A DNA stretch of 64,000 nt from Candidatus Uhrbacteria bacterium (GTDB taxonomy: Bacteria; Patescibacteriota; Patescibacteriia; UBA9934; GWF2-40-263), in the NCBI GenBank assembly GCA_037131775.1, contig JBAXQK010000003.1, positions 12,439-76,438 on the forward strand, written 5' to 3'. Below are positions 26,092-47,353 of the stretch, one piece after another (the stretch's first letter is position 1; every line of letters starts with the position of its first letter). The position numbers were made by a program, and so were the translations under genes. The notes beneath the pieces were generated by a model, which searched no databases, had not been told where the DNA came from, and saw only the letters and a list, made by a program, of their open reading frames with translations.

Positions 26092-26144
26092 ACCGGCGCA
26101 TTATAGCAAAAGAACCCCGGGTTGGCGTTCCATTCGTTTTCAAT

Positions 26145-33563: not shown

Positions 33564-33646
33564 GCCCCACAGTATACCATCCCCGAGGAATCGCGGGACG
33601 ACCTGAAAATAACAAAGCCCCGTCGGTTGTGCGACGGGGCTTTGTC

Positions 33647-34094: not shown

Positions 34095-34529
34095 TCAAGG
34101 GGTCCCCTCTGCGACGGAAGGAACCGGGCTGGCCGAGGGGCATCCAAGGAATCCGTTAACCCTGCCGACGACCTCGTTGATCCCCAGGTCGGATTTCACT
34201 AAGAAGTCGAGCGCGCCCATCTTCTTCGCGCGTTCCCGGTCCTCGCTCTGGTTGAGGTTTGAGAATACGACGACCTTGATGTCCTTGATCTCCGGATCGG
34301 CCTTGGCTTCCTCCAGCACCTGGAACCCGTTCTTGTTCGGCATGATCAGATCAAGCAGAACCAGCTGCGGCTTGATCAGGCGCATCTTCTCAAGCGCCTC
34401 CACCCCGTCCGCGGCCGTCTCCACGACGAAGCCGTGCCGGGCCAGCTTGCTCTTGAGCACGCCGGAGAGCGCGCTCTCGTCCTCGGCGATCAGGATGAGC
34501 GGATTCGTCACTTTTGGTTCGATTTCCAT
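34095..34529 (-). CDS. Stand-alone response regulator receiver (CheY-like)
   Basis: ILIAEDE...LLDLIMP...K motif; 144 aa, no output domain. Confidence 0.85.
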   Translation of the reverse strand: MEIEPKVTNPLILIAEDESALSGVLKSKLARHGFVVETAADGVEALEKMRLIKPQLVLLDLIMPNKNGFQVLEEAKADPEIKDIKVVVFSNLNQSEDRERAKKMGALDFLVKSDLGINEVVGRVNGFLGCPSASPVPSVAEGTP

Positions 34530-34537
34530 ACGCGTGA

Positions 34538-36793
34538 TTATTTCTCATTCGTCGTTAGCGACTTCCCTCCCCCGCGTCCCTTGCTTCCCGCGACGGGGAG
34601 CAGGAACCAGAAGGTGCTTCCATGTCCCTCGTCCGAGTCGAAGGAGATCATACCTCCCGACTCCTCGATGATCAACTTCGCGATGTACAGCCCGAGCCCG
34701 GAACCCTCCGCCTGTTTCTTCACCGCGTTGTTCGCGCGGAAGAACCGCTCGAAGATCCGACCCTTGTCCTCTGCGCCGATTCCCATCCCGTTGTCGGTTA
34801 CCGTCACGCGGTAGTAGTGCTTTCCATCCTTGGTCAGCGTCACGTCCACCTGGGGCTTCCCCGTTTCGGGATAGGTGTACTTGACCGCGTTCGAGACGAG
34901 GTTTGCCGCGACCTGGCGGATGAGCACGGGATCGACGCTGATGGTCGGAAGCGGATCGGTGGGCAGATGCAGGTTGAGCGCACATCCCTTCGCGACGGCG
35001 ATCCCTGTGTTCTCCTGGACGACGTCCCTCAGAACACCGGCGATGTCCGTCGGCTTGGGCTCGATGGCCAGGCGGCCCGTTTCCAGGCGGGAGACGTTGA
35101 GCAGGTCGTTGACGAGATTGATCATGCGGGCGGTGGACTCGACGGCCTGGTCCACGCTTGCCTTCTGTTCCGGAAGCAGCGGGCCGATTTCCTGGGACTG
35201 CAGGTCCTCAAGGTACCAGCGGATGGCGGTCAGCGGCGTGCGAAGCTGGTGGGAGGCGACGGAGACGAACTCGGTCTTCAGTCGGTCCACCTCGCGCTCG
35301 TGCGTCACGTCGCGGAACACGATGACCGCGCCCACGACCGACCCGTCCGCGCCCACGATCGGCGCCGACGAATCGGCGACCGGCAGGAGCGACCCGTCCG
35401 GACGAATGAGCGACATCCCGTCGGGCATCACCGACAGCTTTCCATTGAGCGCCTTCCTGACAAACGAGTCGTCCGCGACGCGATCCTTCTCATGGACGAA
35501 CCGCAGGACGGACCCGTACGGCTTCCCGATCGACTCGTCGGCGGTCAGGTCGGAGATCCGCTCCGCCGCGTGGTTGAACAGGATGATCTTCCCGTCCGAC
35601 CCGATTGCGACCACGCCGTCGCCGATCCCGAGCAGGATCGCGTCGGACTTGGCCTTCGCCTGCTGGAGAAGGGACTGAGACTCATGGATCCGGTCGATCA
35701 TCACGTTGAACGAGCGACCGAGCGTTCCCACCTCGTCGCCCGAGGAAAGCAGCTCCTCCGGAAGACGCTCGTCCTCCGTGCCTCCCGCGATGTGCTGGAT
35801 GGTGTCCGTGATCTGGTTCAGGCGGCGCGTGGACAGGCGAACGGTGATCCAGAGCGCCAGCGCGAGCGCCAGGATCATTCCGGCGCCCGCGCTGGAAAGA
35901 ATCAGGACGATCCGCTGTTCCACGTGATTCGCGAGCGAGCTCGGCTCCACTTTAATGAGCGTGAATTTTCCCGGATCTTCGTCATACTTGTCATAGGCGG
36001 CCACCATTTCCGAATCGTTCACCCGTATGTTGAACACGCCGTTCGTTCCGCTCCATTTGGCAGCCTCCTCGACGGCGCGGCCAACAACCGCGTCATAGAG
36101 GGTTCCATCTCCCTGTGTCAGCCCGCCCGTTCGAGTGTCGATGATCACCCGGTTGTTCCGATCGAGCACGACGGCAAACTGCCCGGGCTGCTGGAGGCCC
36201 TTCAGCTGGTTGCCCAAGCTCTCCAGGTCGAGCGTTGCCGATACGATGCCGGTCTTCATTCCGGCCTCGTTTCGAATGGGAACGGCCATCGTAAGAACCG
36301 AACGGTCCGTCAGCGCGCTGACATACCTCCCCGAGACAAAGACGTCCTCGTCGAAACCGACATCCGCGCAATAGTCGGATTGTAGAAAATTCCTTGGATC
36401 GGCCGCCGCATAGTCGCTGTCGGCCGCGACGATCGTGCAGTCCGCGCGTTGCAGGACGATGTTTTCCAAGGAGTCGACCAGGGGAACGGCTCCGCGCAGC
36501 CCGCTCCTTGCCTCTCCGACGGCCGCCGGCTTCGCATCCGCCGAGAGCGCGGCGACAAAAACAGGATCGCGGGCAAACGATTCGAGCGACAGCCTCACGT
36601 AGCTCAGCTGGGACCGCAGCAACTGCTCGTTGAAATCCAGCGTCTGCTTGGTCTGCGTCACCAGGTCGTCCCTGAGCAGCTGCCGAATCATGGCGACCGA
36701 CGCGAACACCGTGGTCGGCAAAATGACCGCGACGCACAGGAAGGCGACGAGGATGATGTCGAAGGCGATGGAATTGACGCGCTTCAGGGCCAT
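34538..36793 (-). CDS. Sensor histidine kinase (TM-extracellular sensor-HAMP-PAS-HisKA-HATPase)
   Basis: Two TM segments flanking a ~280-aa periplasmic domain; H-box SHQLRTPLTAI; N, G1 (DNGMGI), G2 (GSGLGL) boxes. Confidence 0.9.
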   Translation of the reverse strand: MALKRVNSIAFDIILVAFLCVAVILPTTVFASVAMIRQLLRDDLVTQTKQTLDFNEQLLRSQLSYVRLSLESFARDPVFVAALSADAKPAAVGEARSGLRGAVPLVDSLENIVLQRADCTIVAADSDYAAADPRNFLQSDYCADVGFDEDVFVSGRYVSALTDRSVLTMAVPIRNEAGMKTGIVSATLDLESLGNQLKGLQQPGQFAVVLDRNNRVIIDTRTGGLTQGDGTLYDAVVGRAVEEAAKWSGTNGVFNIRVNDSEMVAAYDKYDEDPGKFTLIKVEPSSLANHVEQRIVLILSSAGAGMILALALALWITVRLSTRRLNQITDTIQHIAGGTEDERLPEELLSSGDEVGTLGRSFNVMIDRIHESQSLLQQAKAKSDAILLGIGDGVVAIGSDGKIILFNHAAERISDLTADESIGKPYGSVLRFVHEKDRVADDSFVRKALNGKLSVMPDGMSLIRPDGSLLPVADSSAPIVGADGSVVGAVIVFRDVTHEREVDRLKTEFVSVASHQLRTPLTAIRWYLEDLQSQEIGPLLPEQKASVDQAVESTARMINLVNDLLNVSRLETGRLAIEPKPTDIAGVLRDVVQENTGIAVAKGCALNLHLPTDPLPTISVDPVLIRQVAANLVSNAVKYTYPETGKPQVDVTLTKDGKHYYRVTVTDNGMGIGAEDKGRIFERFFRANNAVKKQAEGSGLGLYIAKLIIEESGGMISFDSDEGHGSTFWFLLPVAGSKGRGGGKSLTTNEK

Positions 36794-36802
36794 AGGGTTC
36801 GA

Positions 36803-37198
36803 TTAGACCTCGCGCCAGGAGGAGATGACGATCTTCGGGCTGAGCGCGCTCGTGGAGATGAGCAGCTTCTTGGTGACATTCGCGACCGTCGCGGTAACGC
36901 TGATCGTCCGCACGCTTCCGCCGGAGTTCGCGACCCCGTACGTGCACGACCCCGCGCCAAGCGTCACGGATCCGGAACCAGTATACAGCACGTTGTCATG
37001 GATCTGCCGCAGCGCCACGTCCGCGCACGCGCGGGCGATTCCTTTCGCCTCGTAATACTGCCGCAGTCCAAGCGACGCCTGTAGCGAATTCGTGCTCGCG
37101 AACACCAGGGCCGACGCGGTGGTTGCCGCGACGGCACCGAGAACGAGAACGCCGATCAGGGCGGCGAACCCGCGATCATTGCAGGCTTGCGGATCCAT
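36803..37198 (-). CDS. Pilin-like/pseudopilin-like protein (G|F N-terminus without Glu5), tentative
   Basis: MDPQACNDRG|FAALIGVLVLGAV...; position within the pilin gene run. Confidence 0.45.
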   Translation of the reverse strand: MDPQACNDRGFAALIGVLVLGAVAATTASALVFASTNSLQASLGLRQYYEAKGIARACADVALRQIHDNVLYTGSGSVTLGAGSCTYGVANSGGSVRTISVTATVANVTKKLLISTSALSPKIVISSWREV

Positions 37199-37682
37199 AG
37201 AAGGTTTGCGAGTAGGTAAACGGCGCGGAGCTTCCCGACGCTCCGGACAGGGTAAAGCTGACGCGGACCGTGCCGGGAGTCGATGCGCGGGAGAGATTTT
37301 GAAAGGAGAGGCTTGACGCGACCACGTTCGCGTTCGTGAGCGGAACGGCGGCCGACGCGCCTTCCGTCGCCATGATCGCCCCGCCCGAGAGCGAGAACAC
37401 GGTCGGGCTCGCCGGGGCGCTGTCGACGCTCACCGTGAGCGAGGCCCCGGTGGCGCCGGAGGCGGGAGCCGTAATCGCCGAGGCGTTACGCGTCGTCTGC
37501 GTGATGATCTCCAGCGCCTGCCTTCCCTGCTCCTCCACCTCCCGCCGCACGGCTTCCCTTCCGCTCGACCGCTGTACGATTCCTGCGAGCAGGCCGACCG
37601 TGCCAATCAGCAACGAAACAACCCCGAGGTAGATGACCGCCTCGATGTAGGTGAACCCTCGGTTGTTCGTTGCGATGCCCAT
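37176..37682 (-). CDS. Type IV prepilin-like protein (class III leader MGIATNNRG|FTYIE)
   Basis: Internal Met start; GFTYIEAVIYLGVVSLL N-methylation/cleavage motif. Confidence 0.72.
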   Translation of the reverse strand: MGIATNNRGFTYIEAVIYLGVVSLLIGTVGLLAGIVQRSSGREAVRREVEEQGRQALEIITQTTRNASAITAPASGATGASLTVSVDSAPASPTVFSLSGGAIMATEGASAAVPLTNANVVASSLSFQNLSRASTPGTVRVSFTLSGASGSSAPFTYSQTFYGSASLQ

Positions 37683-37690
37683 GCGATTGG

Positions 37691-39436
37691 TCAGAGCCTC
37701 CAGTAGGCGAATGAGAACGGGTTCGTAATCTTCTGAGGCAGCGTCGGCACCAGCACGGCGCCGTCCGAGTTCGTCCAGGTAAACGCGGGAACGGCGCTCA
37801 TGACGACGCGCTTGGAATACAGGTCGTTCGCGTTCTCCGCGATCGAATACATGAGCGTGTCCTTGCTGAGCGGGTTCATCTGCGCCTCCAGGAACGACTG
37901 CGGGGTTGTCGGCGCCGGAGCCAGGGCGACGTCCGCCTGGAGGGTGAAGACTCCTGCGACCCCCGTGTACCAGTCGACGTTCGTCGTCGCGTTGTCGCCG
38001 TAGATGACGATCGAACGCGTGGTCGCCCCGTTGATCAGCCAGCCCGTCGAGACGATCTTGCCGCCCGCGACCGGCGTATTGCAGCTCGTGTCGACGTTCG
38101 CGGTATCCGTCCATGCCGCCCCGCTCCAATATCCGGCCTGCATGTCGCTTCCCGCGTTCCCGACCGAGGCGAAAACCATTTCGTCCGTGTTCGGATTCGC
38201 GGAGAGGTCGAGGTTCGTGGCGTCGTCGGCAAAGGTCGGGGGCGTCGTCACCGCTCCCCACGCGCACGCCGACGTCCCGCCGGTGCAAACGCGATACCGC
38301 ACGCCGTTCGATCCGTTCGAGCCGGCCGAGTTCGCCCAGACCATCATCACGTCGCCGGAAACGGACTCGTACTCAACGTCGAAGTCCTCCACGTCCTGCG
38401 CCGCCGCCACGATTTCAAGCGATGCCTCCGACACGGCCGCGGGCTCGTTCCCCCACGCGGTCCCGCTCCAGACCATTGCCGACAAATCGGATGCCGCGTC
38501 GGCCCAGATGGCCGTGATCAGGTTCTGCGCGGAACGCCGGTCCCAGGCGAGCTTTACCCATTGGACGACTCCGGACGTCCGTACGGGATCGAGGTTGGCC
38601 GCGGCGGCCCAATTTGCCGTCCCGCATCCCGACGTCCCGAGCTTCGTGCGGTACGCCATCTCGTTCGTCGTCGCCGCGTTCGTGGAATACAGCACCATCA
38701 CGTCCCCCGAGCTTGTCTCGTACGCGATATCAAATCGTCGCGTCGTCCCCGTTCCGCCCACCGTGACGCTCCACTCCTGCGTCCATGTCGCGCCGTCGTA
38801 GCACATCACGTTCAGCACTCCCGCCGCGGTCACGTACCCGGTGATTGCCTCGGTCTTCTGCGGCGAGGTCCGCGTGACGAACGTCACGCCGCTCGACCCG
38901 ACGACCGTCGCCGTCTGCGTTCCGAAGGAGTTGGCCGTCGTGTCGTATTTGCGGTACTTCGGCGTGGTCGTTCCGTCGCCGTAGGACATGAGACCGCCGA
39001 GCGTCGTCGTTACCGCGTTCCAGTCCGCAAAATACGTGACGAGCGACACCGAGCGCGTCTGCCCGGTCGGCTCCTTCCAGGAGACCGTGCTCGTGTCCGA
39101 CTTCTTCGTCGCGTCCACGACGGCGATCGTCTGCGTCCGCGTATAGATTCCCGTGGTGTCCGACGCGCCCGATAGGTTCCATTGGTTTCCCGTCGTGGTC
39201 AGCCCGTACGTTCCCGCCGACAGGTTGGAATAGGCCGCGTCGCGGATATTCTGCGTCGCCTCCAATCCTTCCTCGGCCAGGAACACGGCCTGGCTCTTTC
39301 GTCCGGCCTCCTTCGACATCCGCACCCCGAACAGCAGACCGCCCGCGCAGGACGCCACGAACAGCCCCGCGAGCGCGGTGGCGAGAATGATCTCCACGAC
39401 GGAGAAGCCGGCTCGGTTTGGACACGAGTCTCTCAT
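37691..39436 (-). CDS. Giant type IV prepilin-like protein (581 aa; leader ...NRAG|FSVVE), candidate tip adhesin/minor pilin
   Basis: Prepilin N-terminus followed by ~540-aa Thr/Gly/Ala/Trp-rich beta-type domain with scattered Cys pairs. Confidence 0.78.
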   Translation of the reverse strand: MRDSCPNRAGFSVVEIILATALAGLFVASCAGGLLFGVRMSKEAGRKSQAVFLAEEGLEATQNIRDAAYSNLSAGTYGLTTTGNQWNLSGASDTTGIYTRTQTIAVVDATKKSDTSTVSWKEPTGQTRSVSLVTYFADWNAVTTTLGGLMSYGDGTTTPKYRKYDTTANSFGTQTATVVGSSGVTFVTRTSPQKTEAITGYVTAAGVLNVMCYDGATWTQEWSVTVGGTGTTRRFDIAYETSSGDVMVLYSTNAATTNEMAYRTKLGTSGCGTANWAAAANLDPVRTSGVVQWVKLAWDRRSAQNLITAIWADAASDLSAMVWSGTAWGNEPAAVSEASLEIVAAAQDVEDFDVEYESVSGDVMMVWANSAGSNGSNGVRYRVCTGGTSACAWGAVTTPPTFADDATNLDLSANPNTDEMVFASVGNAGSDMQAGYWSGAAWTDTANVDTSCNTPVAGGKIVSTGWLINGATTRSIVIYGDNATTNVDWYTGVAGVFTLQADVALAPAPTTPQSFLEAQMNPLSKDTLMYSIAENANDLYSKRVVMSAVPAFTWTNSDGAVLVPTLPQKITNPFSFAYWRL

Positions 39437-39437
39437 A

Positions 39438-39893
39438 TTAAAAATCCACCCTTCCGAACCCGTTGACCGCGACCGCCTTCGACGTGCCGCGCGAATCCGT
39501 GATCGTCAGGGTTCCCGAGGTCGTTCTCCCGGTGCGCTTCGCAAAGTCGAACTCGCTCGTTCCAGAGACGACGAAGCTTGCCGGGATCGACACGGCCTGG
39601 TCGTACGTCGCCGTCCGCGTCGCGTACGTCGCCCCCTGGAACAGGATGACCTGTCCCGTCGACACCTTCACGCCCCACGCCGCGTCGTATAGGCCCGCCT
39701 GGGAACGCATCTGCGCGTACCGCGCCGTCGAGGCGAACTCACGGACGGCCGCGTCGAGATTGCCGCGCTGGAGGTATGTCTGCCCGAGCGGGAAGGTCGC
39801 GCCAACGAAGATGCCGGCGAGCGCAATAACGAAGATCATCTCCAGCAGCGTGAAGCCTTTTGGTCTGCGAATAACGTATGAGCTGCCAATCAC
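39438..39893 (-). CDS. Type IV prepilin-like protein (leader ...RRPKG|FTLLE)
   Basis: GFTLLEMIFVIALAGIF motif; 151 aa. Confidence 0.82.
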   Translation of the reverse strand: MIGSSYVIRRPKGFTLLEMIFVIALAGIFVGATFPLGQTYLQRGNLDAAVREFASTARYAQMRSQAGLYDAAWGVKVSTGQVILFQGATYATRTATYDQAVSIPASFVVSGTSEFDFAKRTGRTTSGTLTITDSRGTSKAVAVNGFGRVDF

Positions 39894-39920
39894 ACAAATT
39901 GCTTCGTATCGCTACGAATG

Positions 39921-41000
39921 TTACTCGATGCCTCCAACGAGGGTGTAGATGGGAAGGACGACGGCGAGGGCAAGGAACAGGACGCCGACGCCCATGACGA
40001 GGAGGAGAAGCGGCTCGAGAATGACGGTGAGGTTCTTCGAGGCCACGTCGGCCTTGAACTCGTACAGCTCGCCGATGCTGAGAAAGGCCTGCGGCACGGT
40101 ACCGGACTGCGCCGCGGTAACGATGAGCTGCTGCATCGGGATGGAAAGGACCGAACTGGTCCGCTTGTAGGAGCGGAACGCCTGCTCAAACGTGCTTCCC
40201 TCCTCCAGCCGGTCGGCGAGGTATTCGAAGAACTTCGAAAACGACGCGAACGTTGACGCGCGCGCGACGGAACGGACGGACTCGATCAGGTCGACGCCGG
40301 CGCCGAGAAGGGTGCCCAGCAGGTACCCGACGCGGCCGGTTTCCGAATCAATCAGCAGGCGCCCGATCGCCGGGGTGCGAAGCAGGAAGAAATGACCGAT
40401 GAACCGCAGCGGCGGTATGACGAAGCCGACCAGAAGGACGACGGCTGCCGTCCCCAGGATGGACGGGACCAGAACGGTCCAGTGGTCGCGCGTAAACGAA
40501 CCGACGGAGATGAGCGCGCTCGTCACGAACGGCAACGGCATGTTCAGCGACGAGAAGGTGGTGGCAAGCTGCGGAAGGAGAAAAAACAGCACCCAGGATC
40601 CGACGGCCGCCCCGAGGATGATCACGAACGAGGGATAGGCCATGGCCCCGATGATCTTGGATCGGAACATGCGGTCCTTCTGCCGCTGGAGAGCGAGGAT
40701 GTGCAGGTTCTGGATGAGCCGGCCGGTCTCCTCGCCGATGCGGACGAGCGAGACGGTCTGGCTCGTGAACAGGCACGTGTTGTCCAGGGCGCGCCACACC
40801 GGGTCCCCGTTCTCCACGTCCTCGACCATCCGTCGCACGAGCTTCCGGAGTCGCCGACTCTTCGTCTCCGCGGAGATGGCATTCAGCGCGGCCAGGATGT
40901 CCATGCCGGAACTCAACAAAACCGAAAGATTGTCCACGAGATATTCCTTCTCGCTTCCAAGGCCGAACGTGTGAAAAAAGGATGCCTTCTTTTTCGGCAT
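39921..41000 (-). CDS. pilC: Type IV pilus assembly platform protein PilC (GspF family)
   Basis: 359 aa; duplicated GspF domains with 3 TM segments. Confidence 0.88.
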   Translation of the reverse strand: MPKKKASFFHTFGLGSEKEYLVDNLSVLLSSGMDILAALNAISAETKSRRLRKLVRRMVEDVENGDPVWRALDNTCLFTSQTVSLVRIGEETGRLIQNLHILALQRQKDRMFRSKIIGAMAYPSFVIILGAAVGSWVLFFLLPQLATTFSSLNMPLPFVTSALISVGSFTRDHWTVLVPSILGTAAVVLLVGFVIPPLRFIGHFFLLRTPAIGRLLIDSETGRVGYLLGTLLGAGVDLIESVRSVARASTFASFSKFFEYLADRLEEGSTFEQAFRSYKRTSSVLSIPMQQLIVTAAQSGTVPQAFLSIGELYEFKADVASKNLTVILEPLLLLVMGVGVLFLALAVVLPIYTLVGGIE

Positions 41001-41004
41001 AGGA

Positions 41005-42702
41005 TTAGGACGCTTCGGGCGGCGCGACGACGCGAAGCAGCTCGTCGATGGTGATCACGCCATTGATCACCTTGTCGACGCCGTCAAGGAACATCGGCCT
41101 GGTTCCGGACGCGACCGCGGAGGCCATCACGTCCTTGGCGCTCGGCCGGCGCATCACGAGGTCGCGCAGTTCCGGCGTGGCCTGAATGAACTCGAACACG
41201 CCGATGCGCCCCTTGTATCCGGAATTCGCGCAGGCGGAACATCCCTTGCCCTGGTAAAGCGTCACCGTGGCCCCCGGAAAGTACTTCGCCGCGTCGGGAT
41301 ACTTCTCCGCGAGCTGCGCCTGGCTCATTTCCGTGCCATAGCGGCAGGTCTCGCACGTCTTGCGGGCTAGGCGCTGGGCCACGATCAGCTCGACGGTAGA
41401 TGACAGCAGGAACGGCTCCACGCCCATGTCCACCAGGCGCGGAATGGCCGAGGCGGCGTCGTTGGCATGGAAGGTCGTGAGCAGCATGTGGCCGGTCAGC
41501 GCGGCGTTGACCGCGATCTCGGCGGTCTCCTGGTCGCGTACCTCTCCCACGAGGATGATGTCCGGGTCCTGGCGCACGATGGACCGAAGGCCCTTGGAAA
41601 AGGTCAGGTTGGTCTGGAGGTTCACCTGGATGTGGTTCACGCCCATGATCTTGTACTCGACCGGGTCCTCGATGGTGGAAATGTTCACGTCGGGGCGGTT
41701 CAAGAACTTCACGGCCGCGTACAGCGTCGTGGTCTTTCCCGATCCGGTCGGCCCGATCACGAGGATCATCCCGAACGGCTTCTCCGCCGAGGCGGTGAGC
41801 TGTCGCTGCAGCGCCGGCGAAAGACCGAGGTCCGTGAGCTGATATCCGCGCATGTACTCCGACAGGAGGCGCATGACGATCTTCTCGCCGTCCACGAGCG
41901 GAACGACGGAGACGCGAACGTCCACGACCTGGTTGGCGAGATGGTAACGGATGGCCCCGTCCTGCGCCGAATAGTGCTCGTCGGTTCGGAGATGCGCCTG
42001 CACCTTGACGCGGTTCAGAACGTTTTCGTACAGCTCCTTGCTCAGGCGGCCGGCCTCCTCGAGCAGGCCGTCCACGCGGAACCGGATCAGCACGTCCTTC
42101 TCGCGCGGCTCGAAATGGATGTCGGACGCGCGAAACGTGACCGCGTCGAGCATGATCTCGTCCACCACTTCCGGGGCCACCTTTCCCTTCTCCGCCACGA
42201 TCTTCGCGAAGCGCGTATCCAATGCCTTGCGGTAGTGCGCGAACGCCGCCTCCAGGTCTTCCGGAAGCGTATATGCCAGATTGACGGTCTTTCCTGGGAA
42301 ATGCGAGCGAAAATCGTCCGTCATCTCAATCTGCGGGCGGTCGGTCGCGATGATCACCTCCGTCGGCGCGTCGCGAAAAATCACGCGCCGGTCGCGACGC
42401 GCGAACTCCTCCGGGATGCGCAGCACCTCCTCCTTGGTGGGAGGGTGCGAATTGAGGTCGGCGTACGGAACGCCGTAGTGCTCGGCGATCGCCTGGCCGA
42501 ACAGGTCCTTGGTGATGATGCCCGACGAGAAGAGCGCGTCGAGCGAATCGGCGCTCGTCGCCTTTGCCTCCGCTTCCACCTTCGCGAGCGCGTCGGCGGT
42601 CAGGTAGCTCTCCTCGACGAGAATTTCCTGCCACGTCTTTTGAGGCGCCGGCGCCGCGGCGGGGACGACCTCATTTTTTTTCCTCCTCAGTAACATATGC
42701 AT
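41005..42702 (-). CDS. pilB: Type IV pilus assembly ATPase PilB (GspE family)
   Basis: Walker A GPTGSGKTTTLYA, Asp box, His box, tetracysteine CETCRYG...CSAC. Confidence 0.92.
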   Translation of the reverse strand: MHMLLRRKKNEVVPAAAPAPQKTWQEILVEESYLTADALAKVEAEAKATSADSLDALFSSGIITKDLFGQAIAEHYGVPYADLNSHPPTKEEVLRIPEEFARRDRRVIFRDAPTEVIIATDRPQIEMTDDFRSHFPGKTVNLAYTLPEDLEAAFAHYRKALDTRFAKIVAEKGKVAPEVVDEIMLDAVTFRASDIHFEPREKDVLIRFRVDGLLEEAGRLSKELYENVLNRVKVQAHLRTDEHYSAQDGAIRYHLANQVVDVRVSVVPLVDGEKIVMRLLSEYMRGYQLTDLGLSPALQRQLTASAEKPFGMILVIGPTGSGKTTTLYAAVKFLNRPDVNISTIEDPVEYKIMGVNHIQVNLQTNLTFSKGLRSIVRQDPDIILVGEVRDQETAEIAVNAALTGHMLLTTFHANDAASAIPRLVDMGVEPFLLSSTVELIVAQRLARKTCETCRYGTEMSQAQLAEKYPDAAKYFPGATVTLYQGKGCSACANSGYKGRIGVFEFIQATPELRDLVMRRPSAKDVMASAVASGTRPMFLDGVDKVINGVITIDELLRVVAPPEAS

Positions 42703-42703
42703 T

Positions 42704-42714
42704 CAGTATAGCAC
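42704..42714 (-). promoter_or_regulatory. Extended -10 element GTGCTATACTG on the minus strand, 2 nt from the pilB ATG (leaderless-type arrangement)
   Basis: Part of an 11-bp inverted repeat with the pilA promoter element at 42757-42767. Confidence 0.4.
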
Positions 42715-42756
42715 ACCGCGCCTTATCCACACGAGCTTCGTTCTGCGATTTGACGT

Positions 42757-42767
42757 TCCGTGCTATA
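42757..42767 (+). promoter_or_regulatory. Extended -10 element GTGCTATACTG for pilA (with TTGACG upstream)
   Basis: About 30 nt upstream of the pilA ATG; same motif recurs at 43748, 45869, 47307 and 14056 on the minus strand. Confidence 0.45.
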
Positions 42768-42797
42768 CTGGAACCAATAATTTATAAATCGTAACGT

Positions 42798-43286
42798 ATG
42801 CAAAAGAAAAATACGCAGGGCTTCACGCTCATCGAGCTTCTCATCGTCATCGCGATCATCGCGATCCTCGCCGCCGTCGTCTTCGTCGCCCTCGACCCGA
42901 GCAGCCGCTTCAAGAAGGCACGCGACGCCCGCCGCCAGACCGACGTGCAAAGCATCGCCGGCGCCATCGTCACCTACCAGGTGGATAACGACGGAAGCCT
43001 TCCGTCCGCCGTCAGCGCCCTGACCGCCGGAAGCGCGTACATCGTGGGAACGGCCACCTCCGGCTGCAACACCGGCTGTACGGCCACCACGACACAGGCG
43101 TCCTGCGTGGACCTTACCGCGCTCCAGACCGGCGGCTACCTGGGCAGCGTTCCGGTCGATCCGACGGGCGGAGTAACGGCCACCGCCGCGCACACCATGT
43201 ACTACATCATCAAGAATTCCACCGGAACCCTGACCGCCGGAGCCTGCATCCCGGAACTCGCCTCCTCGGTCAACGTTACGCGCTAA
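42798..43286 (+). CDS. pilA: Type IV major pilin (PilA-like; leader MQKKNTQG|FTLIELLIVIAIIAILAA)
   Basis: Canonical prepilin N-terminus; 162 aa; C-terminal Cys pair. Confidence 0.88.
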   Translation: MQKKNTQGFTLIELLIVIAIIAILAAVVFVALDPSSRFKKARDARRQTDVQSIAGAIVTYQVDNDGSLPSAVSALTAGSAYIVGTATSGCNTGCTATTTQASCVDLTALQTGGYLGSVPVDPTGGVTATAAHTMYYIIKNSTGTLTAGACIPELASSVNVTR

Positions 43287-43296: not shown

Positions 43297-43335
43297 AAAA
43301 ACTCCCGGCCTCGATCATCGAGGCCGGGAGTTTTA
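43297..43335. terminator. Bidirectional rho-independent terminator (actcccggcctcga-tca-tcgaggccgggagt)
   Basis: 14-bp stem flanked by A5 and T4; between convergent pilA and the receiver gene. Confidence 0.65.
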
Positions 43336-43341
43336 TGTTCC

Positions 43342-43725
43342 CTAGGGATTTTCCGCGAGGACTTCCTTGACCATGTTCGCCAGGTCGTCGATGGAAATCT
43401 CCGTCTTGATCAGGAACTTGGTCGCCCCGAGCTTTTCGCACTGCACGCGGTCCTCGTCCTGGCCGAGGTTGGTCATGACCACGATCGGCACGCCCGCGAG
43501 CGACTTTTCCTTCGCGGCCTTGCGGAGGAATTCCAGACCGTCCATTCCCGGCATGATGATGTCGAGCAGGATCAGGTCCGGCATCTGCTCGCGGATCCGA
43601 ACGAATGCCTCCTTCCCGTCCGAGGCCGACGCGACGTCGTACCCCTCCGAGAGCAGCTTGGCCTGGTAGATCGCCTGGATATCGACGTTGTCCTCGGTGA
43701 TAAGGATGTGCGCTTTTGTTGGCAT
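43342..43725 (-). CDS. Stand-alone response regulator receiver
   Basis: MPTKAHILITEDNVDIQAIY...LLDIIMPGMDG...; ORF-track N-extension rejected. Confidence 0.82.
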   Translation of the reverse strand: MPTKAHILITEDNVDIQAIYQAKLLSEGYDVASASDGKEAFVRIREQMPDLILLDIIMPGMDGLEFLRKAAKEKSLAGVPIVVMTNLGQDEDRVQCEKLGATKFLIKTEISIDDLANMVKEVLAENP

Positions 43726-43747
43726 AGGATGATGAGATATCGGATCC

Positions 43748-43758
43748 AGTATAGCACA
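43748..43758 (-). promoter_or_regulatory. Extended -10 element TGTGCTATACT (minus strand) about 23 nt upstream of the receiver ATG
   Basis: Same motif as the pilA/pilB promoters. Confidence 0.4.
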
Positions 43759-43772: not shown

Positions 43773-44771
43773 TTAGTGGGATACGGCGGAGATGGTCACG
43801 GAACCCGTGCAGGTTCCGGAGACGCCTGAGTCCGGGATGGAAATATTCCAATAGATAGGCTCGGACGGAACGGTCGCGCCATGGCGGTATCCGACGCCCA
43901 GAGGAACGATGGACGGAACGGCGGTCAGCGAAACCGATCCGGAACCTCCGTAATGGTTCGGCACGACGGACCACTGCTGGCGTCTGCTCGGGACGGCGCC
44001 GATCCCGCCGTTATGGACGCAATCCATGGTTCCTCCATACCCGGGCGCCCCGGGCGCCGTCGAGTACGAAACTTCCGCGTCCGATTCGTCGTTCCCCTCC
44101 TGGGAGATGACATGGGCGAACTCATTCGTTTCGTCGGTGGATTCTCCGACCGAAAGGATTCCATAGTTGACGGAGTTGGGAACATGAAGCGCCAAGAGCG
44201 TCTGGATCTCGCGAGTAAGCGACGCGTTTGTCGCCTGCGCGCCCGCGCGGTCGAAGACGGTGACGCTTGCGACCCAGTGATCGTCTGGAAACTCACCGCC
44301 GGCAACCGTACTGTCCGCGAAGTACCAAAGGTCCAGCGGACAGCTGTACCGACGCTGCAGACTCGTTACACCGTCCGATGACAGCTCGCAATCAAAGACC
44401 TTGTAACAGTCATTCCCGTCATTTTCGACGCAACCGCCCGCGCCGGCGACGCCGGACCGGTAAAATACCGAGTCCACATGATCGATCTGGTCGCCCGAGT
44501 TGTTATCCTGAACGACGCCGTTCAGGTAAACGGTCTTCGTGCCGCCAGGCACGAGACTATTGATCCCACCGGAATATTCTTCCGATCCAAACGCGGAATT
44601 GCTGAGGCGGACGGAGGAAACGAACGGGGGCGCGTTTGCAAGAAGGATCGACGTGCCGACTGTTTGAGCCTCGGAATCCGTTTGGACGAGCAGCAATGCC
44701 GCCAGACCGCAAAGAACGAGAATGGCAGAGCCGAAAGCGACGGTGCGAAACGGAAAGATGTTCGGGCTCAT
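43773..44771 (-). CDS. Secreted Cys-containing protein, paralog family member 2 (ends GTCTGSVTISAVSH)
   Basis: Signal peptide; family blocks TKTVYLNG, FYRSG, CxxxxxDC, YSCPLDLWYFADS, NYGILSVG. Confidence 0.72.
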   Translation of the reverse strand: MSPNIFPFRTVAFGSAILVLCGLAALLLVQTDSEAQTVGTSILLANAPPFVSSVRLSNSAFGSEEYSGGINSLVPGGTKTVYLNGVVQDNNSGDQIDHVDSVFYRSGVAGAGGCVENDGNDCYKVFDCELSSDGVTSLQRRYSCPLDLWYFADSTVAGGEFPDDHWVASVTVFDRAGAQATNASLTREIQTLLALHVPNSVNYGILSVGESTDETNEFAHVISQEGNDESDAEVSYSTAPGAPGYGGTMDCVHNGGIGAVPSRRQQWSVVPNHYGGSGSVSLTAVPSIVPLGVGYRHGATVPSEPIYWNISIPDSGVSGTCTGSVTISAVSH

Positions 44772-44789: not shown

Positions 44790-45836
44790 CTAACGGCTTG
44801 TCTTTGCAATGATCGTAACTGTCCCGGAACACGCGCCCGCCACGCCAGAAGTCGGAACCCGCACTTCGTTCCGCAGCACGACCGCCTTTGGCGACGACGG
44901 ATCGGTCTGCAGCGGAACATTCAGTTCCGCGACATGGGTGACGGACGATCCTTCGTCGACGTAGGCCTCCATCCCGATTCCGTCAAACCCTGCGTCCGTC
45001 GATTCCCCGTCGACGCCAACGCCGAACTGAAGGTTCGACACGGGAACGATCCCCGTGTCGCAGGACATGTCCGTCGCATAGACGTACGCATCCTGCGTAT
45101 CGTTCGCGGCCTGTCCGACAAGGATGTCCTCCGTGCCCACGGAAGTGTCGCCCTCGTATCCAAGCGACCTGGAACCGTAGTCGATGGATGACGGCATGCT
45201 CAGGCCGAGGAAGGCGTTGATCTCCTTGTCCAGATGCGCGACCGCGGATCCGGCGCCGTCCGCGTCCAGCGCGAGAACCTCCCATTTCCAAACGTACCCG
45301 TTCACCGTCGCGCTCGGTCCGCCGGCCGTATAGCTCGCAAATGCTCGCAGGTCGATCTGACACTCATACACGACGGTAAGGCCGGAAGGATCCGACGCAT
45401 CCCGCTCGAACACGCACTCCGGAACCATTCCGTCGGATGACGCCCAATAACAGACATGTTCCGTACCCGTGCACCGCGAGACGACCGGACGCGCATACGA
45501 GATGGGATCTCGGTCGCTTCTTCGCGCCTGCGCGTAAATTTTTTGAACGTCCTCCCATCCGTTCGCGTCGGAAATTCTTCCGTTCAGATAGACCGTAAGG
45601 CCAACGCCCGGAACGATGGTGTCAATGTTCCCGGCAAAGTCGTCGGAAAGCGAAAATCCCGAATCGAGGCTGATGTGCTCCTCCGTCACGACCGGCGCCG
45701 CGTTGACGAGCCACATCAGCATGTCGACGGTTTCGGCCTCTGAGGAAACCACCCGGACGACGGATGTGAGGACGCAAACAAGCGCCACCCACAGGACGAT
45801 CCCAAAAAAAACGCGTGACTGCTCTTCGTTCGGCAT
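44790..45836 (-). CDS. Secreted Cys-containing protein, paralog family member 3 (ends GACSGTVTIIAKTSR)
   Basis: Signal peptide; family blocks LTVYLNG, YECQIDLRAFASY, DYGSRSLG. Confidence 0.72.
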   Translation of the reverse strand: MPNEEQSRVFFGIVLWVALVCVLTSVVRVVSSEAETVDMLMWLVNAAPVVTEEHISLDSGFSLSDDFAGNIDTIVPGVGLTVYLNGRISDANGWEDVQKIYAQARRSDRDPISYARPVVSRCTGTEHVCYWASSDGMVPECVFERDASDPSGLTVVYECQIDLRAFASYTAGGPSATVNGYVWKWEVLALDADGAGSAVAHLDKEINAFLGLSMPSSIDYGSRSLGYEGDTSVGTEDILVGQAANDTQDAYVYATDMSCDTGIVPVSNLQFGVGVDGESTDAGFDGIGMEAYVDEGSSVTHVAELNVPLQTDPSSPKAVVLRNEVRVPTSGVAGACSGTVTIIAKTSR

Positions 45837-45868
45837 GCCTGTGATAGATCAGGGTTCCGTTTCGGATA

Positions 45869-45879
45869 GTATAGCACAA
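45869..45879 (-). promoter_or_regulatory. Extended -10 element TGTGCTATACT (minus strand) upstream of paralog 3
   Basis: Motif recurrence; about 33 nt before the ATG at 45836. Confidence 0.4.
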
Positions 45880-46189: not shown

Positions 46190-47215
46190 TTAGCGATTGG
46201 TCTTCGCGGTGACAGTAACCGTTCCGGCACACGAACCCTTGACTCCCGACGACGGGACGGTGATCTCGTTGCGCCACATGACCTGCTTGGAGGATCCATT
46301 TGTCTGCGGGTCCAGGTTGAGCTCGATAACGTCCGTCGAGGCGGTGTTGATGTAGTTCACCATGCCCGTGCCGCCGTATCCGACGTCAGATCCTTCGCCG
46401 GCAACGCCGACGCCGTACTGAATGTTGGCGACCGGGATGGAACCAAGACCCGAGCAGGTCATGTCCGTCGCGCTGATGTAGGCGTCCTGGGTGTCGTTCG
46501 ATTTGTTCGCGATCGGCTGGTCCTCACCGCCGACGCTCGTGTCGCCGACGGATCCAAGCGACTTGTTTCCGAAGTTGATGTTGCCCGGGATTGCGAGCCC
46601 GAGATACGCGTTGAGCTCCTTGTCGACGTTCGAGATGCTCGAACCGTCATTTGCGGCGTCAATCGCGAGAACCTGCCACTTGTAGGTCTGGGCGTTGATC
46701 GCGGAGTTCGCGCCTCCGTTCGTGTACTCAAACCAGTACGGGAGATTGAACGCACAGCTGTAGTTGACCGTGTTCCCGGATCCGCCGTAGAGGGAACAGA
46801 GGGGGGATCCGCCATCGGACATGGCGATCAAACAGTCGAACTGGTTCGGGGTGCAGTTGGTGAACGCAGGCTTCGAGTAGGAAAGCAAGGTGCCGTCCGT
46901 GCTGAGCGCCACGGAGGCGACCACCTTGGTGACGTCCGCGTATCCGTTGAAGTCCGTGATCACGCCGTTGACGTAGACGGTCGCTCCCATGCCGGCAACC
47001 ATCGTGTTGATGTTGCCGCCCCAGAAGTTCGAGTTCGTGTTCGCGGCGTTGCTGAGGAATTCCGACGTGACGGTAGGAGCGTCGTTGTTAACGCCAAGGG
47101 TCATGTTGGTCGGACCGGCCTGCGAGTTGATCATGACGAGGGAGGCAACCACGAACACGGCGATCATGACGAGCGAGATCCCGAGAATGTAGTGCAATGT
47201 CTTGGACTCTTGCAT
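46190..47215 (-). CDS. Secreted Cys-containing protein, paralog family member 4 (ends GSCAGTVTVTAKTNR)
   Basis: Start at MQESKTLHYILGISLVMIAV (TM/signal); family blocks ATVYVNG, YSCAFNLPYWFEYT, NFGNKSLG. Confidence 0.7.
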   Translation of the reverse strand: MQESKTLHYILGISLVMIAVFVVASLVMINSQAGPTNMTLGVNNDAPTVTSEFLSNAANTNSNFWGGNINTMVAGMGATVYVNGVITDFNGYADVTKVVASVALSTDGTLLSYSKPAFTNCTPNQFDCLIAMSDGGSPLCSLYGGSGNTVNYSCAFNLPYWFEYTNGGANSAINAQTYKWQVLAIDAANDGSSISNVDKELNAYLGLAIPGNINFGNKSLGSVGDTSVGGEDQPIANKSNDTQDAYISATDMTCSGLGSIPVANIQYGVGVAGEGSDVGYGGTGMVNYINTASTDVIELNLDPQTNGSSKQVMWRNEITVPSSGVKGSCAGTVTVTAKTNR

Positions 47216-47306
47216 ACGGATAGAAGAATTATTTAGAGAACGAACGCGTGCCTCAAATTTTCTGCACTGTTGTGGGGGGGTTAATGAATTATGATTCTGC
47301 AATTGT

Positions 47307-47319
47307 GGATAACTGACGA
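47307..47319 (-). promoter_or_regulatory. Extended -10-like element GTGTGGTATACTG (minus strand) about 90 nt upstream of paralog 4
   Basis: Variant of the TGTGCTATACT motif. Confidence 0.3.
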
Positions 47320-47353
47320 CAGTATACCACACGGATTGCTCAGGGACCAGAAC

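What the first reader, a model, noticed from the sequence alone, without database searches (positions are those of the whole stretch)
34095..43286. Compact type IV pilus operon co-transcribed with a two-component system and containing a 581-aa giant prepilin
Seen in sequence: pilB, pilC, three class-III-leader prepilins (151, 581 and 168 aa), a pilin-like protein lacking Glu5, a periplasmic-sensor histidine kinase and a CheY-like receiver are all on the minus strand with 1-10 nt gaps or overlaps. Divergent pilA sits on the other side of a shared 11-bp inverted-repeat promoter element. No pilD, pilM/N/O/Q or pilT is present in 64 kb, which is consistent with a monoderm or CPR-style minimal pilus (inference). 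The giant prepilin, with a ~540-aa Thr/Gly/Trp-rich domain, is a candidate tip adhesin. Tight coupling of pilus structural genes with their own sensor kinase is unusual.
Basis: partly seen in the sequence, partly recalled or inferred. Interest (0 to 1): 0.6.

Follow-up and report, generated by a model that had tools for sequence, protein, structure and literature searches.

The report
Conserved CPR pilus cassette with propeller-tipped pilin
This is a real type IV pilus gene cluster from an ultrasmall Candidatus Uhrbacteria bacterium. Its "giant pilin" is a small tip pilin fused to a sugar-binding-like beta-propeller, and this protein, together with CheY-like signalling genes, turns out to be conserved across much of the Candidate Phyla Radiation.

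Summary
On the minus strand, pilB, pilC, four pilin-like genes, a Cache-HAMP-PAS histidine kinase and a receiver-only response regulator lie 1-27 nt apart or overlap. pilA is divergent. No pilD, pilM/N/O/Q or pilT is in the 64 kb. The contig is Candidatus Uhrbacteria (CPR).

The four pilin genes are colinear with gspH-I-J-K and comGD-E-F-G. The 581-aa protein sits at the I position. Its AlphaFold2 model (pLDDT 89.5) has a pilin module (residues 1-140) and a 435-aa beta-propeller that best matches seven-bladed lectins and has no Pfam or PDB sequence relative.

The cassette recurs in 47 genome loci from many CPR lineages. The propeller pilin is usually more conserved than PilB (median 52% vs 45% identity). 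A receiver-only regulator lies directly upstream of pilB in 34 of 45 loci. In one Peregrinibacteria contig a full Che system takes that place. So the signalling link is conserved, not incidental.

The "11-bp inverted repeat" is two divergent copies of the genome's generic extended -10 promoter box.

The same propeller also occurs in giant Elusimicrobia surface proteins.

Verdict: a new variant of a known kind, of moderate interest.

The parts
34095..34529 (-). RR1: receiver-only (CheY-like) response regulator, 144 aa, last gene of the operon
   Evidence: The only Pfam hit is Response_reg, 1.7e-20. The acidic pocket (AEDE), the phospho-acceptor Asp (LLDLIMP), the Ser/Thr position and the Lys are visible in the sequence. 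It is most similar (42-43% identity) to the regulator that sits directly upstream of pilB in Falkowbacteria and Shapirobacteria. tRNA-Tyr and tRNA-Thr follow it.
34538..36793 (-). Sensor histidine kinase, 751 aa: TM, extracytoplasmic dCache_1, TM, HAMP, PAS, HisKA, HATPase_c
   Evidence: Pfam hits: dCache_1 2.3e-14, HAMP 6.6e-11, PAS 3.6e-11, HisKA 2e-16, HATPase_c 1.8e-26. The H-box (SHQLRTPL) and the N, G1, F and G2 boxes can be read in the translation. The gap to the gene on each side is 8-9 nt.
36803..37198 (-). K-position minor pilin, 131 aa, class-III-like leader but no Glu5 (G|FAALI)
   Evidence: Weak match to the GspK N-terminus, 7.7e-4. All 39 orthologues extracted from relatives lack Glu5 at position +5 and most read G|Y(I/V)AL; two Cys are invariant. 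It overlaps the J gene by 23 nt. No Pfam or PDB profile hit.
37176..37682 (-). J-position minor pilin, 168 aa (G|FTYIE)
   Evidence: 16 of 24 orthologues match NCBIfam ComGF (best 1.4e-5), and a few match GspJ or GspI. E14 and Y18 are invariant. The profile matches the N-terminal helix of full-length pilins in the PDB.
37691..39436 (-). I-position bimodular minor pilin, 581 aa: prepilin leader and pilin module (residues 1-~140, nt ~39017-39436) fused to a beta-propeller (residues 147-581, nt 37694-38998)
   Evidence: AlphaFold2 pLDDT 89.5, pTM 0.75: helix 13-67, sheet 75-137, then about 8 groups of 3-4 strands. Best Foldseek PDB matches are seven-bladed propeller lectins (6gxr 4.3e-9, 5c9l 1.3e-8). 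No Pfam hit; weak XpsI/GspI N-terminal hit. No PDB sequence relative. At least 411 homologues, the 120 best at 48-100% identity.
39438..39893 (-). H-position minor pilin, 151 aa (G|FTLLE)
   Evidence: N_methyl 1.9e-6. ComGD 2.1e-7 and GspH 3.2e-7. 22 of 23 orthologues match ComGD and 19 of 23 match GspH.
39921..41000 (-). pilC platform protein, 359 aa
   Evidence: T2SSF 9.3e-44, two stretches. GspF 5.5e-52 and PilC models.
41005..42702 (-). pilB extension ATPase, 565 aa (the true start may be the second ATG, at 42696)
   Evidence: T2SSE 1.9e-115 and MshEN 7e-11. TIGR02538 PilB 470.7 bits and GspE 461.6 bits, both below the equivalog cut-offs. It carries the only T2SSE Walker A in the window.
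42705..42713 (-). Extended -10 promoter box (TGCTATACT) for the pilB operon; one arm of the 11-bp inverted repeat
   Evidence: The second ATG of pilB starts 9 nt downstream, so the mRNA is probably leaderless.
42761..42769 (+). Extended -10 promoter box (TGCTATACT) for pilA; the other arm of the inverted repeat
   Evidence: The pilA ATG lies 29 nt downstream.
42798..43286 (+). pilA, candidate major pilin, 162 aa (MQKKNTQG|FTLIE)
   Evidence: N_methyl 2.9e-10. GspG N-terminus 9.7e-11. In most relatives one to three pilA-like genes follow K on the same strand.
43298..43334 (.). Perfect 17-bp-stem hairpin between the convergent pilA and RR2 genes; likely a bidirectional terminator
43342..43722 (-). 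RR2: second receiver-only response regulator (126-127 aa) with its own promoter box at 43748-43756
   Evidence: Response_reg 1.4e-23. No output domain found. The identical 11-mer GTGCTATACTG lies at 43747-43757. It is called as a 127-aa gene on the source contig.

Best explanation
The locus is a self-contained module of a type IVa-like pilus of a monoderm CPR bacterium.

Proposed mechanism:
1. PilB (ATPase) and PilC (platform) polymerise PilA.
2. Assembly is primed by four core minor pilins encoded in the order H-I-J-K, as in T2SS gspHIJK and Com comGDEFG. They end up at the filament tip.
3. The K-position subunit lacks Glu5, as the first-in, tip-capping subunit should.
4. The I-position subunit is covalently fused to a ~435-aa, 7-8-bladed beta-propeller, which is therefore displayed at the pilus tip.
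5. The propeller is lectin-like and most likely binds a widely conserved surface ligand, probably a glycan on partner or host cells. In effect it is a built-in counterpart of PilY1.
6. Pilus activity is tuned by the co-encoded signalling genes. A kinase with an extracytoplasmic Cache sensor phosphorylates two single-domain CheY-like receivers. They have no DNA-binding output, so they most likely act by protein-protein contact on the PilB/PilC motor. One may act as a phosphate sink.
7. PilD, any PilM/N/O and any PilT must be encoded elsewhere.

Shown: the gene identities, the fold, the conserved order, and the conserved signalling link.
Inferred: tip location, glycan binding, the receiver-to-motor mechanism, and co-transcription.
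For: - Gene identities.
- H/I/J/K assignment: H matches ComGD/GspH in 22/23 and 19/23 orthologues. J matches ComGF in 16/24. I has a weak XpsI hit and K a weak GspK hit. All 39 K orthologues lack Glu5.
- Bimodular fold with a confident propeller, best matched by seven-bladed lectins BP39L, PLL and PHL.
- Conserved prepilin leader with Glu5 in 90% or more of 40 homologues.
- The pilB-pilC-G581 core recurs in 47 of 80 genome loci (H, J and K detected in 34, 38 and 41 of them) from Uhr-, Collier-, Woese-, Roizman- and Shapirobacteria, Paceibacterota and Peregrinibacteria; Falkowbacteria are added by L084.
- The propeller pilin is the best-conserved gene of the cassette: median 52% identity against PilB 45%, PilC 32% and H/J/K 31-34%. 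It exceeds PilB in 32 of 45 pairs.
- A receiver-only regulator lies within 400 nt upstream of pilB on the same strand in 34 of 45 loci. A kinase lies in the cluster on the same strand in 25 of 37 loci.
- In Peregrinibacteria a complete Che system with a dCache_1 MCP and a CheY occupies that position. Shapirobacteria carry a dCache_1-HAMP gene plus two receivers there.
- Within the operon the gaps are 27 nt or less, there is no extended -10 box and no strong terminator.
- Elsewhere the propeller domain sits in secreted multidomain proteins with TIG, LamG, FG-GAP, FN3, Peptidase_M23 and S8 modules.
- Precedent: TM7x PilX2, a propeller-bearing minor pilin needed for host binding (PMC11623550).
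Against: - No ligand is known, and the propeller has no sequence relative with a known function.
- High conservation across lineages with different hosts is unexpected for a host-specific adhesin.
- The Foldseek list also contains propeller enzymes (PL42, GH145, ulvan lyase), so an enzymatic role is not excluded.
- The K assignment rests on gene position, the missing Glu5 and one weak hit.
- Co-transcription and phosphotransfer are untested.
- No kinase was detected in about a third of loci with enough upstream sequence, and none lies within 10 kb in L087.
- No PilD, PilM/N/O or PilT was seen, so whether the machine is complete or retractile is unknown.
Confidence: 0.6

Rival explanations
1. 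The cassette builds a Com-like competence (DNA-uptake) pseudopilus rather than an adhesive pilus. The propeller would capture DNA or anchor the short filament.
For: The gene order ATPase-platform-D-E-F-G-like matches comG operons. H and J orthologues hit ComGD and ComGF best, and PilB hits ComGA at 2.6e-71. No pilT is seen in the window or within 10 kb in any of the 47 cassette loci. From general knowledge, CPR bacteria depend on scavenged nucleotides.
Against: The propeller is acidic (D+E 9.0% against K+R 5.1%) and resembles lectins, not DNA-binding folds. PilB scores higher on the PilB/GspE models than on ComGA. No comEA, comEC or dprA was found among the Pfam hits for genes in or next to the cluster. 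In TM7x the propeller-pilin system did not contribute to competence (PMC11623550).
Confidence: 0.15
2. The propeller is an enzyme, such as a polysaccharide lyase or hydrolase, delivered on the pilus tip to breach or remodel a partner's cell envelope. It would not be a passive lectin.
For: Foldseek matches include L-rhamnose-alpha-1,4-D-glucuronate lyase 7esn, ulvan lyase 7drq and GH145 5mul at E ~1e-7. A few acidic residues (D236, E240, D313, D353, E357) are conserved at 90% or more in both the pilin-fused and the non-pilin versions. The domain co-occurs with Peptidase_M23 and a subtilase in other proteins. Very high conservation fits a catalytic constraint.
Against: The best matches are non-catalytic lectins. 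Most universally conserved residues are W, G, P and Y, which are typical structural positions of propellers. No catalytic motif was identified.
Confidence: 0.12
3. The kinase and receiver genes are merely neighbours, or regulate something else. The tight spacing would reflect the compact CPR genome only.
For: CPR genomes are gene-dense. The position of the kinase varies: upstream in Microgenomates, downstream in Uhr- and Falkowbacteria. No kinase was detected in 12 of 37 loci.
Against: A receiver lies directly upstream of pilB in 34 of 45 loci across distant lineages. In contrast, the domain-only loci without pilB carry almost no HK or RR hits in their 20-kb windows. In Peregrinibacteria the two-component pair is replaced by a complete Che system at the same place.
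Confidence: 0.08

Closest known systems
Nanosynbacter lyticus TM7x PilX2 (Saccharibacteria T4P-2 minor pilin with a C-terminal heptabladed propeller; PMC11623550)
   Same: Both are CPR minor pilins with a pilin-type N-terminal helix and a grafted C-terminal beta-propeller whose structural neighbours are PLL-type lectins. PilX2 is the proposed tip adhesin and is needed for host binding.
   Different: PilX2 is described as carrying RCC1 repeats and lacking a predicted PilD signal. The 581-aa protein has no Pfam hit at all at E<=0.01, so no RCC1 hit, and it has a canonical, conserved G|FxxxE leader. The TM7x paper reports that pilins are poorly conserved across Patescibacteria. This family keeps about 44-65% identity across many lineages outside its own. 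I could not compare the two sequences directly.
PilY1 with the core minor pilins FimU-PilVWX, and the adjacent fimS-algR two-component system, in Pseudomonas aeruginosa (general knowledge; PilY1 is also discussed in PMC11623550)
   Same: Both have a beta-propeller protein at the pilus tip working with four GspHIJK-like minor pilins, and both encode two-component genes next to the minor-pilin operon.
   Different: PilY1 is a separate non-pilin protein; here the propeller is fused to the I-type pilin. There is no Pfam PilY1/Neisseria_PilC hit. AlgR is a LytTR DNA-binding regulator, whereas the regulators here are receiver-only.
Modular (bimodular) type IV pilins of monoderms, e.g. Streptococcus sanguinis PilB and PilC (general knowledge)
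   Same: Both consist of a pilin module with a functional adhesion module grafted onto its C-terminus, in a monoderm pilus.
   Different: The grafted module differs: vWA or lectin there, a 7-8-bladed propeller of an uncurated family here.
T2SS GspH-I-J-K and competence-pilus ComGD-E-F-G minor (pseudo)pilin sets
   Same: Both have four genes in the same order after the ATPase and platform genes, with the last subunit lacking Glu5. The sequence matches are sub-threshold: H to GspH/ComGD, J to ComGF, K to GspK, I to XpsI.
   Different: All scores are below the curated cut-offs. The major pilin is not at the ComGC/GspG position. The I subunit carries a 435-aa extra domain.
CheY-like single-domain regulators that control type IV pili (Pil-Chp PilG/PilH; cyanobacterial Tax/Pix systems, where a CheY-like regulator binds PilB1) (general knowledge)
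   Same: Both use receiver-only regulators genetically tied to the pilus motor. One relative (L086) has a true Che system with a dCache MCP at the same position.
   Different: In the window the input is a classical HisKA kinase with a Cache sensor, not a CheA/MCP/CheW array. No interaction has been shown.

Membership tests
Type IV pilin / class III signal peptide proteins | Short basic leader ending in Gly, followed by a hydrophobic N-terminal helix with Glu at +5 | tested here: met
   The 151-, 581- and 168-aa proteins and PilA all have G|F-x-x-x-E. N_methyl or TIGR02532 hits for H and PilA. Glu is 90% or more conserved in 40 homologues of the 581-aa protein. The 131-aa protein has the leader and the helix but no Glu5.
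Type IV pilin / class III signal peptide proteins | Lollipop fold: a long alpha-1 helix packed on a beta-sheet | tested here: met
   For the 581-aa protein, the AF2 model has helix 13-67 and strands 75-137, with pLDDT mostly above 80. H, J and K were not modelled.
Type IV pilin / class III signal peptide proteins | Cleavage and N-methylation by a prepilin peptidase (PilD) | not testable with these tools
   No Peptidase_A24 gene in the window. The rest of the genome could not be read.
Type IVa pilus machinery | PilB-type extension ATPase and PilC-type platform | tested here: met
   T2SSE 1.9e-115 and T2SSF 9.3e-44. The TIGR02538 score of 470.7 bits is below the 675.65 equivalog cut-off, and GspE scores about the same.
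Type IVa pilus machinery | PilM/N/O alignment complex, PilD peptidase and PilT retraction ATPase | tested here: not met
   None is in the 64-kb window or within 10 kb in L084, L085 and L087. The only exception is a weak PilM_2 hit after K in L086. They may lie elsewhere in the genome.
GspH-I-J-K / ComGD-E-F-G core minor pilin set | Four consecutive minor (pseudo)pilin genes, the last lacking Glu5, with family-level sequence matches | tested here: inconclusive
   The order and the missing Glu5 are met. H matches ComGD/GspH in 22/23 and 19/23 orthologues, and J matches ComGF in 16/24. I (XpsI, 0.068) and K (GspK, 7.7e-4) are only weak hits. Every score is below the curated cut-off.
PilY1 / Neisseria PilC tip adhesins | Sequence membership of the PilY1 C-terminal propeller family | tested here: not met
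   The 581-aa protein has no Pfam hit at E<=0.01. No PilY1 chain is among the 50 best of 264 significant Foldseek matches. It may work like PilY1 but is not a member.
RCC1-repeat propeller (as reported for TM7x PilX2) | RCC1 repeat matches | tested here: not met
   No RCC1 or any other Pfam family at E<=0.01.
PilS-PilR / FimS-AlgR pilus two-component systems | Response regulator with a DNA-binding output (NtrC-type AAA+/HTH, or LytTR) | tested here: not met
   RR1 (144 aa) and RR2 (126 aa) contain only a Response_reg domain. Orthologues are 118-131 aa.
Chemosensory (Che/Chp-type) control of pili | CheA, CheW and MCP together with CheY-like receivers | tested here: not met
   The window has a HisKA kinase and no CheA, CheW or MCP. 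The Peregrinibacteria relative L086 does have CheW, a dCache-MCP, CheY, CheB, Hpt-CheA, CheC and CheD upstream of the same cassette.

The most novel reading that the evidence does not exclude
The cassette is an ancient sensory pilus shared across much of the CPR. A near-universal beta-propeller tip pilin recognises one conserved ligand on partner cells. The dedicated Cache sensor and the CheY-like receivers (or a full Che system) close a feedback loop onto the PilB motor. This would give these non-motile epibionts contact- or chemical-guided pilus deployment. The propeller would define a new extracellular recognition domain family shared with giant Elusimicrobia surface proteins.
Probability: 0.2. 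Interest if true: 0.75.

Novelty: new variant of a known kind. Interest (0 to 1): 0.55.

Why it matters
Type IV pili are thought to be the main tool by which CPR/Patescibacteria attach to and exploit their hosts. How these pili recognise hosts and how they are regulated is largely unknown (PMC11623550 says so explicitly).

This locus points to three things:
- A tip pilin with an uncurated propeller domain that is more conserved than the motor ATPase across many CPR lineages. That contradicts the expectation that CPR pilins diverge fast, and it suggests a common ligand.
- A conserved genetic link between the pilus motor and CheY-like receivers fed by Cache-type sensors. This gives a concrete, testable route for pilus regulation in organisms with very few signalling genes.
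- A domain family that could be added to the databases, which would improve annotation of hundreds of 'hypothetical' proteins in CPR and Elusimicrobia.

Tried and rejected
Its pilin fold is therefore not modelled.
- Profile searches of K, J and H against PDB sequences gave nothing for K, and only N-terminal-helix matches to full-length pilins for J and H. Solved minor pilins are mostly truncated.
- A Pfam scan of 28 K orthologues gave no consistent family; ComGG appeared once at 0.013.
- Walking beyond the window failed. Two exact-protein look-ups at the right end found nothing. The left end of the ENA contig reaches only ~2.6 kb further and holds no pilus genes. PilD and PilT elsewhere in the genome remain unchecked.
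- I considered the 11-bp inverted repeat as a regulator binding site. I rejected that in favour of two generic promoters.
- I considered a c-di-GMP-binding MshEN domain in PilB. By eye the RLGxx motif is replaced (WQE...), so I did not pursue it.
- I considered whole-cassette horizontal transfer as the reason for the high identity of the 581-aa protein. I rejected it because the neighbouring H, J and K genes in the same loci are only 31-34% identical.
- Literature searches found no paper describing a two-component or Che link to pili in CPR. That shows absence from the searchable library only.

Full report
**Observation**

- pilB, 41005-42702: T2SSE 1.9e-115 plus MshEN.
- pilC, 39921-41000: T2SSF.
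- Three proteins with canonical class-III leaders: 151 aa (KG|FTLLE), 581 aa (AG|FSVVE) and 168 aa (RG|FTYIE).
- A 131-aa pilin-like protein without Glu5 (RG|FAALI).
- A 751-aa kinase: TM, dCache_1, TM, HAMP, PAS, HisKA, HATPase_c.
- A 144-aa receiver-only regulator.

The gaps are 4, 27, 1, 8, -23, 9 and 8 nt. pilA (162 aa) is divergent from pilB.

None of the window's called genes has a Peptidase_A24, PilM, PilN, PilO, secretin or second T2SSE hit in my Pfam scans or in the precomputed Pfam hits; CTP synthase was left out of my own scan but carries CTP-synthase domains. A six-frame motif scan found one T2SSE Walker A and no prepilin-peptidase motif.

It is convergent with pilA and separated from it by a perfect 17-bp-stem hairpin.

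**Source organism**

The 581-aa protein is identical to a protein of a Candidatus Uhrbacteria MAG. The window lies on a 77.8-kb ENA contig. A sortase, MurG, FtsW and MraY are present. These fit a walled CPR cell; that such cells are monoderm is general knowledge of CPR, not shown here.

**The inverted repeat**

The 11-mer GTGCTATACTG occurs exactly at 42704-42714 (-) and 42760-42770 (+). It also occurs at 43747-43757 (-), upstream of RR2.

Its core, TGnTATAmT, is an extended -10 box. It occurs 10 times in the window against 0.32 expected. Nine copies lie 3-32 nt upstream of an ATG that opens a long ORF, and the tenth lies upstream of the 46190-47332 paralogue gene. So the repeat is two back-to-back generic promoters, not a dedicated operator.

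For five of the ten sites the start codon begins 8-11 nt after the -10 box. This includes the second ATG of pilB (9 nt), so leaderless mRNAs are likely.

No such box lies inside 34095-42702, and no strong terminator does either. This fits one transcript from pilB to RR1, but I could not test it. tRNA-Tyr and tRNA-Thr follow RR1.

**The four pilin genes**

Their order matches gspH-I-J-K and comGD-E-F-G.
- H orthologues hit ComGD (22 of 23) and GspH (19 of 23).
- J orthologues hit ComGF (16 of 24).
- The N-terminus of the 581-aa protein weakly hits XpsI, a GspI equivalent.
- The 131-aa protein weakly hits the GspK N-terminus, 7.7e-4. All 39 of its orthologues lack Glu5 and most read G|Y(I/V)AL.

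All scores are below the curated cut-offs. The assignment therefore rests on order plus weak homology.

**The 581-aa protein**

An AlphaFold2 model built on 40 homologues is confident (pLDDT 89.5, pTM 0.75).
- Pilin module: helix 13-67 and sheet 75-137.
- All-beta domain 147-581: about eight groups of 3-4 strands. The C-terminal strand 574-578 probably closes the ring with strands 147-165.

Foldseek against the PDB gives seven-bladed propeller lectins as the best matches: BP39L 6gxr 4.3e-9, then PLL and PHL. These are followed by LGI1-EPTP and some propeller enzymes (PL42, ulvan lyase, GH145).

There is no Pfam hit and no PDB sequence relative. The domain is rich in Ala, Thr, Gly and Ser and is acidic. 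Four Cys are invariant. That fits an extracellular protein, and the window encodes VKOR/thioredoxin and DsbD-like proteins.

**Conservation**

The family has at least 411 homologues, and the 120 best are 48-100% identical.

In a scan of one genome per species, 178 stretches encode a relative, and 80 loci were kept. Of these, 47 have pilB and pilC directly upstream of the 581-aa homologue (H, J and K detected in 34, 38 and 41 of them), usually followed by one to three pilA genes. The titled lineages are Uhr-, Collier-, Woese-, Roizman- and Shapirobacteria, Microgenomates, Paceibacterota and Peregrinibacteria. Falkowbacteria are added by locus L084.

Median identity to the window proteins:

| Protein | Median identity |
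|---|---|
| 581-aa propeller pilin | 52% |
| PilB | 45% |
| PilA | 41% |
| J | 34% |
| H | 33% |
| PilC | 32% |
| K | 31% |

The propeller pilin beats PilB in 32 of 45 pairs. This gene-specific constraint argues against whole-cassette transfer as the cause. It contrasts with the report that CPR pilins are poorly conserved (PMC11623550).

Some lineages insert an extra segment between the pilin module and the propeller, giving proteins of about 760-970 aa.

**The propeller as a mobile module**

A full HMMER scan of 1.84 billion cluster representatives found 672 proteins at E<=1e-3 and 220 at E<=1e-30.

Among 240 domain matches longer than 400 residues in my set:
- 110 are C-terminal to a 120-230-aa N-part, the pilin type.
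- 86 lie just after a signal or anchor at the N-terminus of proteins up to 3,206 aa.

In Elusimicrobia the domain lies inside 4,500-5,000-aa repeat-rich proteins, at 52-59% identity. Two giants show 12 and 13 matched stretches.

Partner domains elsewhere are TIG, LamG, DUF2341, FG-GAP, Kelch, FN3, Peptidase_M23 and subtilase.

Residues conserved at 90% or more in both the pilin and non-pilin versions are mostly W, G, P and Y, plus D236, E240, D313, D353 and E357.

**The signalling link**

A receiver-only regulator lies within 400 nt upstream of pilB on the same strand in 34 of 45 loci with enough sequence. A kinase lies in the cluster on the same strand in 25 of 37 loci. By contrast, the loci that hold only the propeller domain carry almost no kinase or receiver hits.

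Pfam-labelled contexts:
- Falkowbacteria: RR-pilB-pilC-H-I-J-K-pilAx3-HK-RR.
- Shapirobacteria: dCache_1/HAMP gene, 792-aa gene, RR, RR, then pilB and the rest.
- Another ABY1-like contig: RR, pilB and the rest, then pilAx2, with no kinase.
- A Peregrinibacteria contig: CheW, dCache_1-MCP, CheY, CheB, Hpt-CheA, CheC, CheD, a small HK, then pilB-pilC-H-I-J-K and a weak PilM_2 gene.

RR1 of the window is the type that sits next to pilB elsewhere (42-43% identity), and RR2 is the other type. In the Uhrbacteria lineage the kinase-RR pair sits at the downstream end and pilA is inverted.

Two-component genes next to pilus genes are familiar in Proteobacteria (pilSR, fimS-algR; general knowledge). 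The distinctive points here are the receiver-only outputs, the Cache-type inputs, and the interchange with a Che system.

**Mechanism**

I propose that H-I-J-K prime assembly on PilC and cap the PilA filament. The I-fused propeller is then displayed at the tip as a lectin-like binding module, working like PilY1 or TM7x PilX2. The Cache kinase and the two CheY-like receivers modulate the PilB/PilC motor post-translationally.

- Shown: gene identities, fold, order, conservation and the genetic link.
- Inferred: tip position, the ligand, the receiver target and co-transcription.

Rivals, with my estimates: a Com-like DNA-uptake pilus (0.15), an enzymatic tip (0.12), and incidental signalling neighbours (0.08).

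**Novelty and score**

The kind of system is known: a type IV pilus with a modular tip pilin, with a published CPR precedent. Three features are not described in the literature I could search:
- the specific propeller family;
- its exceptional conservation across CPR lineages, and its sharing with Elusimicrobia surface giants;
- the conserved CheY/Cache/Che coupling.

I rate it a new variant of a known kind, interest 0.55.

Noticed in passing
window 14057-14065, 26100-26108, 33571-33579, 42705-42713, 42761-42769, 43748-43756, 45868-45876, 47321-47329, 49085-49093, 52134-52142: An extended -10 box, TGnTATAmT, occurs 10 times (0.32 expected), each time upstream of a gene. In five cases the start codon begins only 8-11 nt after it, which suggests frequent leaderless mRNAs in this Uhrbacteria genome. 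No matching -35 is evident.
   Followed up: partly
window 16406-17377, 43773-44771, 44790-45836, 46190-47332 (all minus strand): Four paralogous secreted or anchored proteins of about 320-380 aa. They share an N-terminal motif (NAPPxV...) and a C-terminal C-x-G-x-(V/T)-T-(I/V)-x-A tail. They have no Pfam or NCBIfam hit. Three of them lie directly next to the pilus cluster, beyond RR2.
   Followed up: partly
window 47354-48718, 49590-50501, 50498-52123 (minus) and 49077-49616 (plus): Three surface proteins with a signal peptide, a GLSP motif and a C-terminal TM plus basic tail flank a signal peptidase I gene. One has a weak PACE-CTERM S-layer-like hit and one a weak cohesin hit. This may be a cell-surface layer or fibre locus.
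   Followed up: partly
L060, L063, L067, L069 (Elusimicrobia), positions ~10001-11380 within ORFs of 13-15 kb: The same propeller domain (52-59% identical) lies inside 4,500-5,000-aa Elusimicrobia proteins made largely of repeated ~90-aa units. Two other giant proteins (P0124, 6,719 aa; P0143, 7,926 aa) show 12 and 13 matched stretches.
   Followed up: partly
L086 1-6622: In a Peregrinibacteria contig a complete chemosensory gene set lies directly upstream of the homologous pilB cassette: CheW, dCache_1-MCP, CheY, CheB, Hpt, CheA-like, CheC, CheD and a 259-aa HisKA kinase. A weak PilM_2-like gene follows the K pilin.
   Followed up: partly
window 15522-16529 and 22147-23778: The window encodes VKOR plus a thioredoxin-like protein, and a DsbD/CcdA-like membrane protein fused to thioredoxin-like domains. 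Together these look like an extracytoplasmic disulfide system. That fits the invariant cysteines in the propeller pilin, the K pilin and PilA.
   Followed up: no
window 26145-28588: A sortase gene lies next to a 559-aa protein with an ice-binding-like domain and DUF11 repeats. This is probably a sortase substrate and supports a Gram-positive-type wall.
   Followed up: no
window 8055-9680: A 541-aa secreted protein carries five or more MopE-type putative metal-binding Cys/Asp-rich repeats.
   Followed up: no
L007, L009, L012, L020, L024, L028, L038, L040, L043, L048, L081: Contigs that carry this CPR-type cassette or domain are titled 'uncultured Gammaproteobacteria', 'Pseudomonadales', 'Methanoperedens' or 'Acidimicrobiales'. 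These are probably mislabelled or misbinned MAG contigs.
   Followed up: no
L085 12689-13708 and the equivalent 1.1-1.3-kb gap between K and pilA in Microgenomates loci (e.g. L008, L013, L016): In Microgenomates-type cassettes an extra ~340-aa gene (weak LytR_C hit) sits between the K pilin and pilA. It is absent from the window.
   Followed up: no
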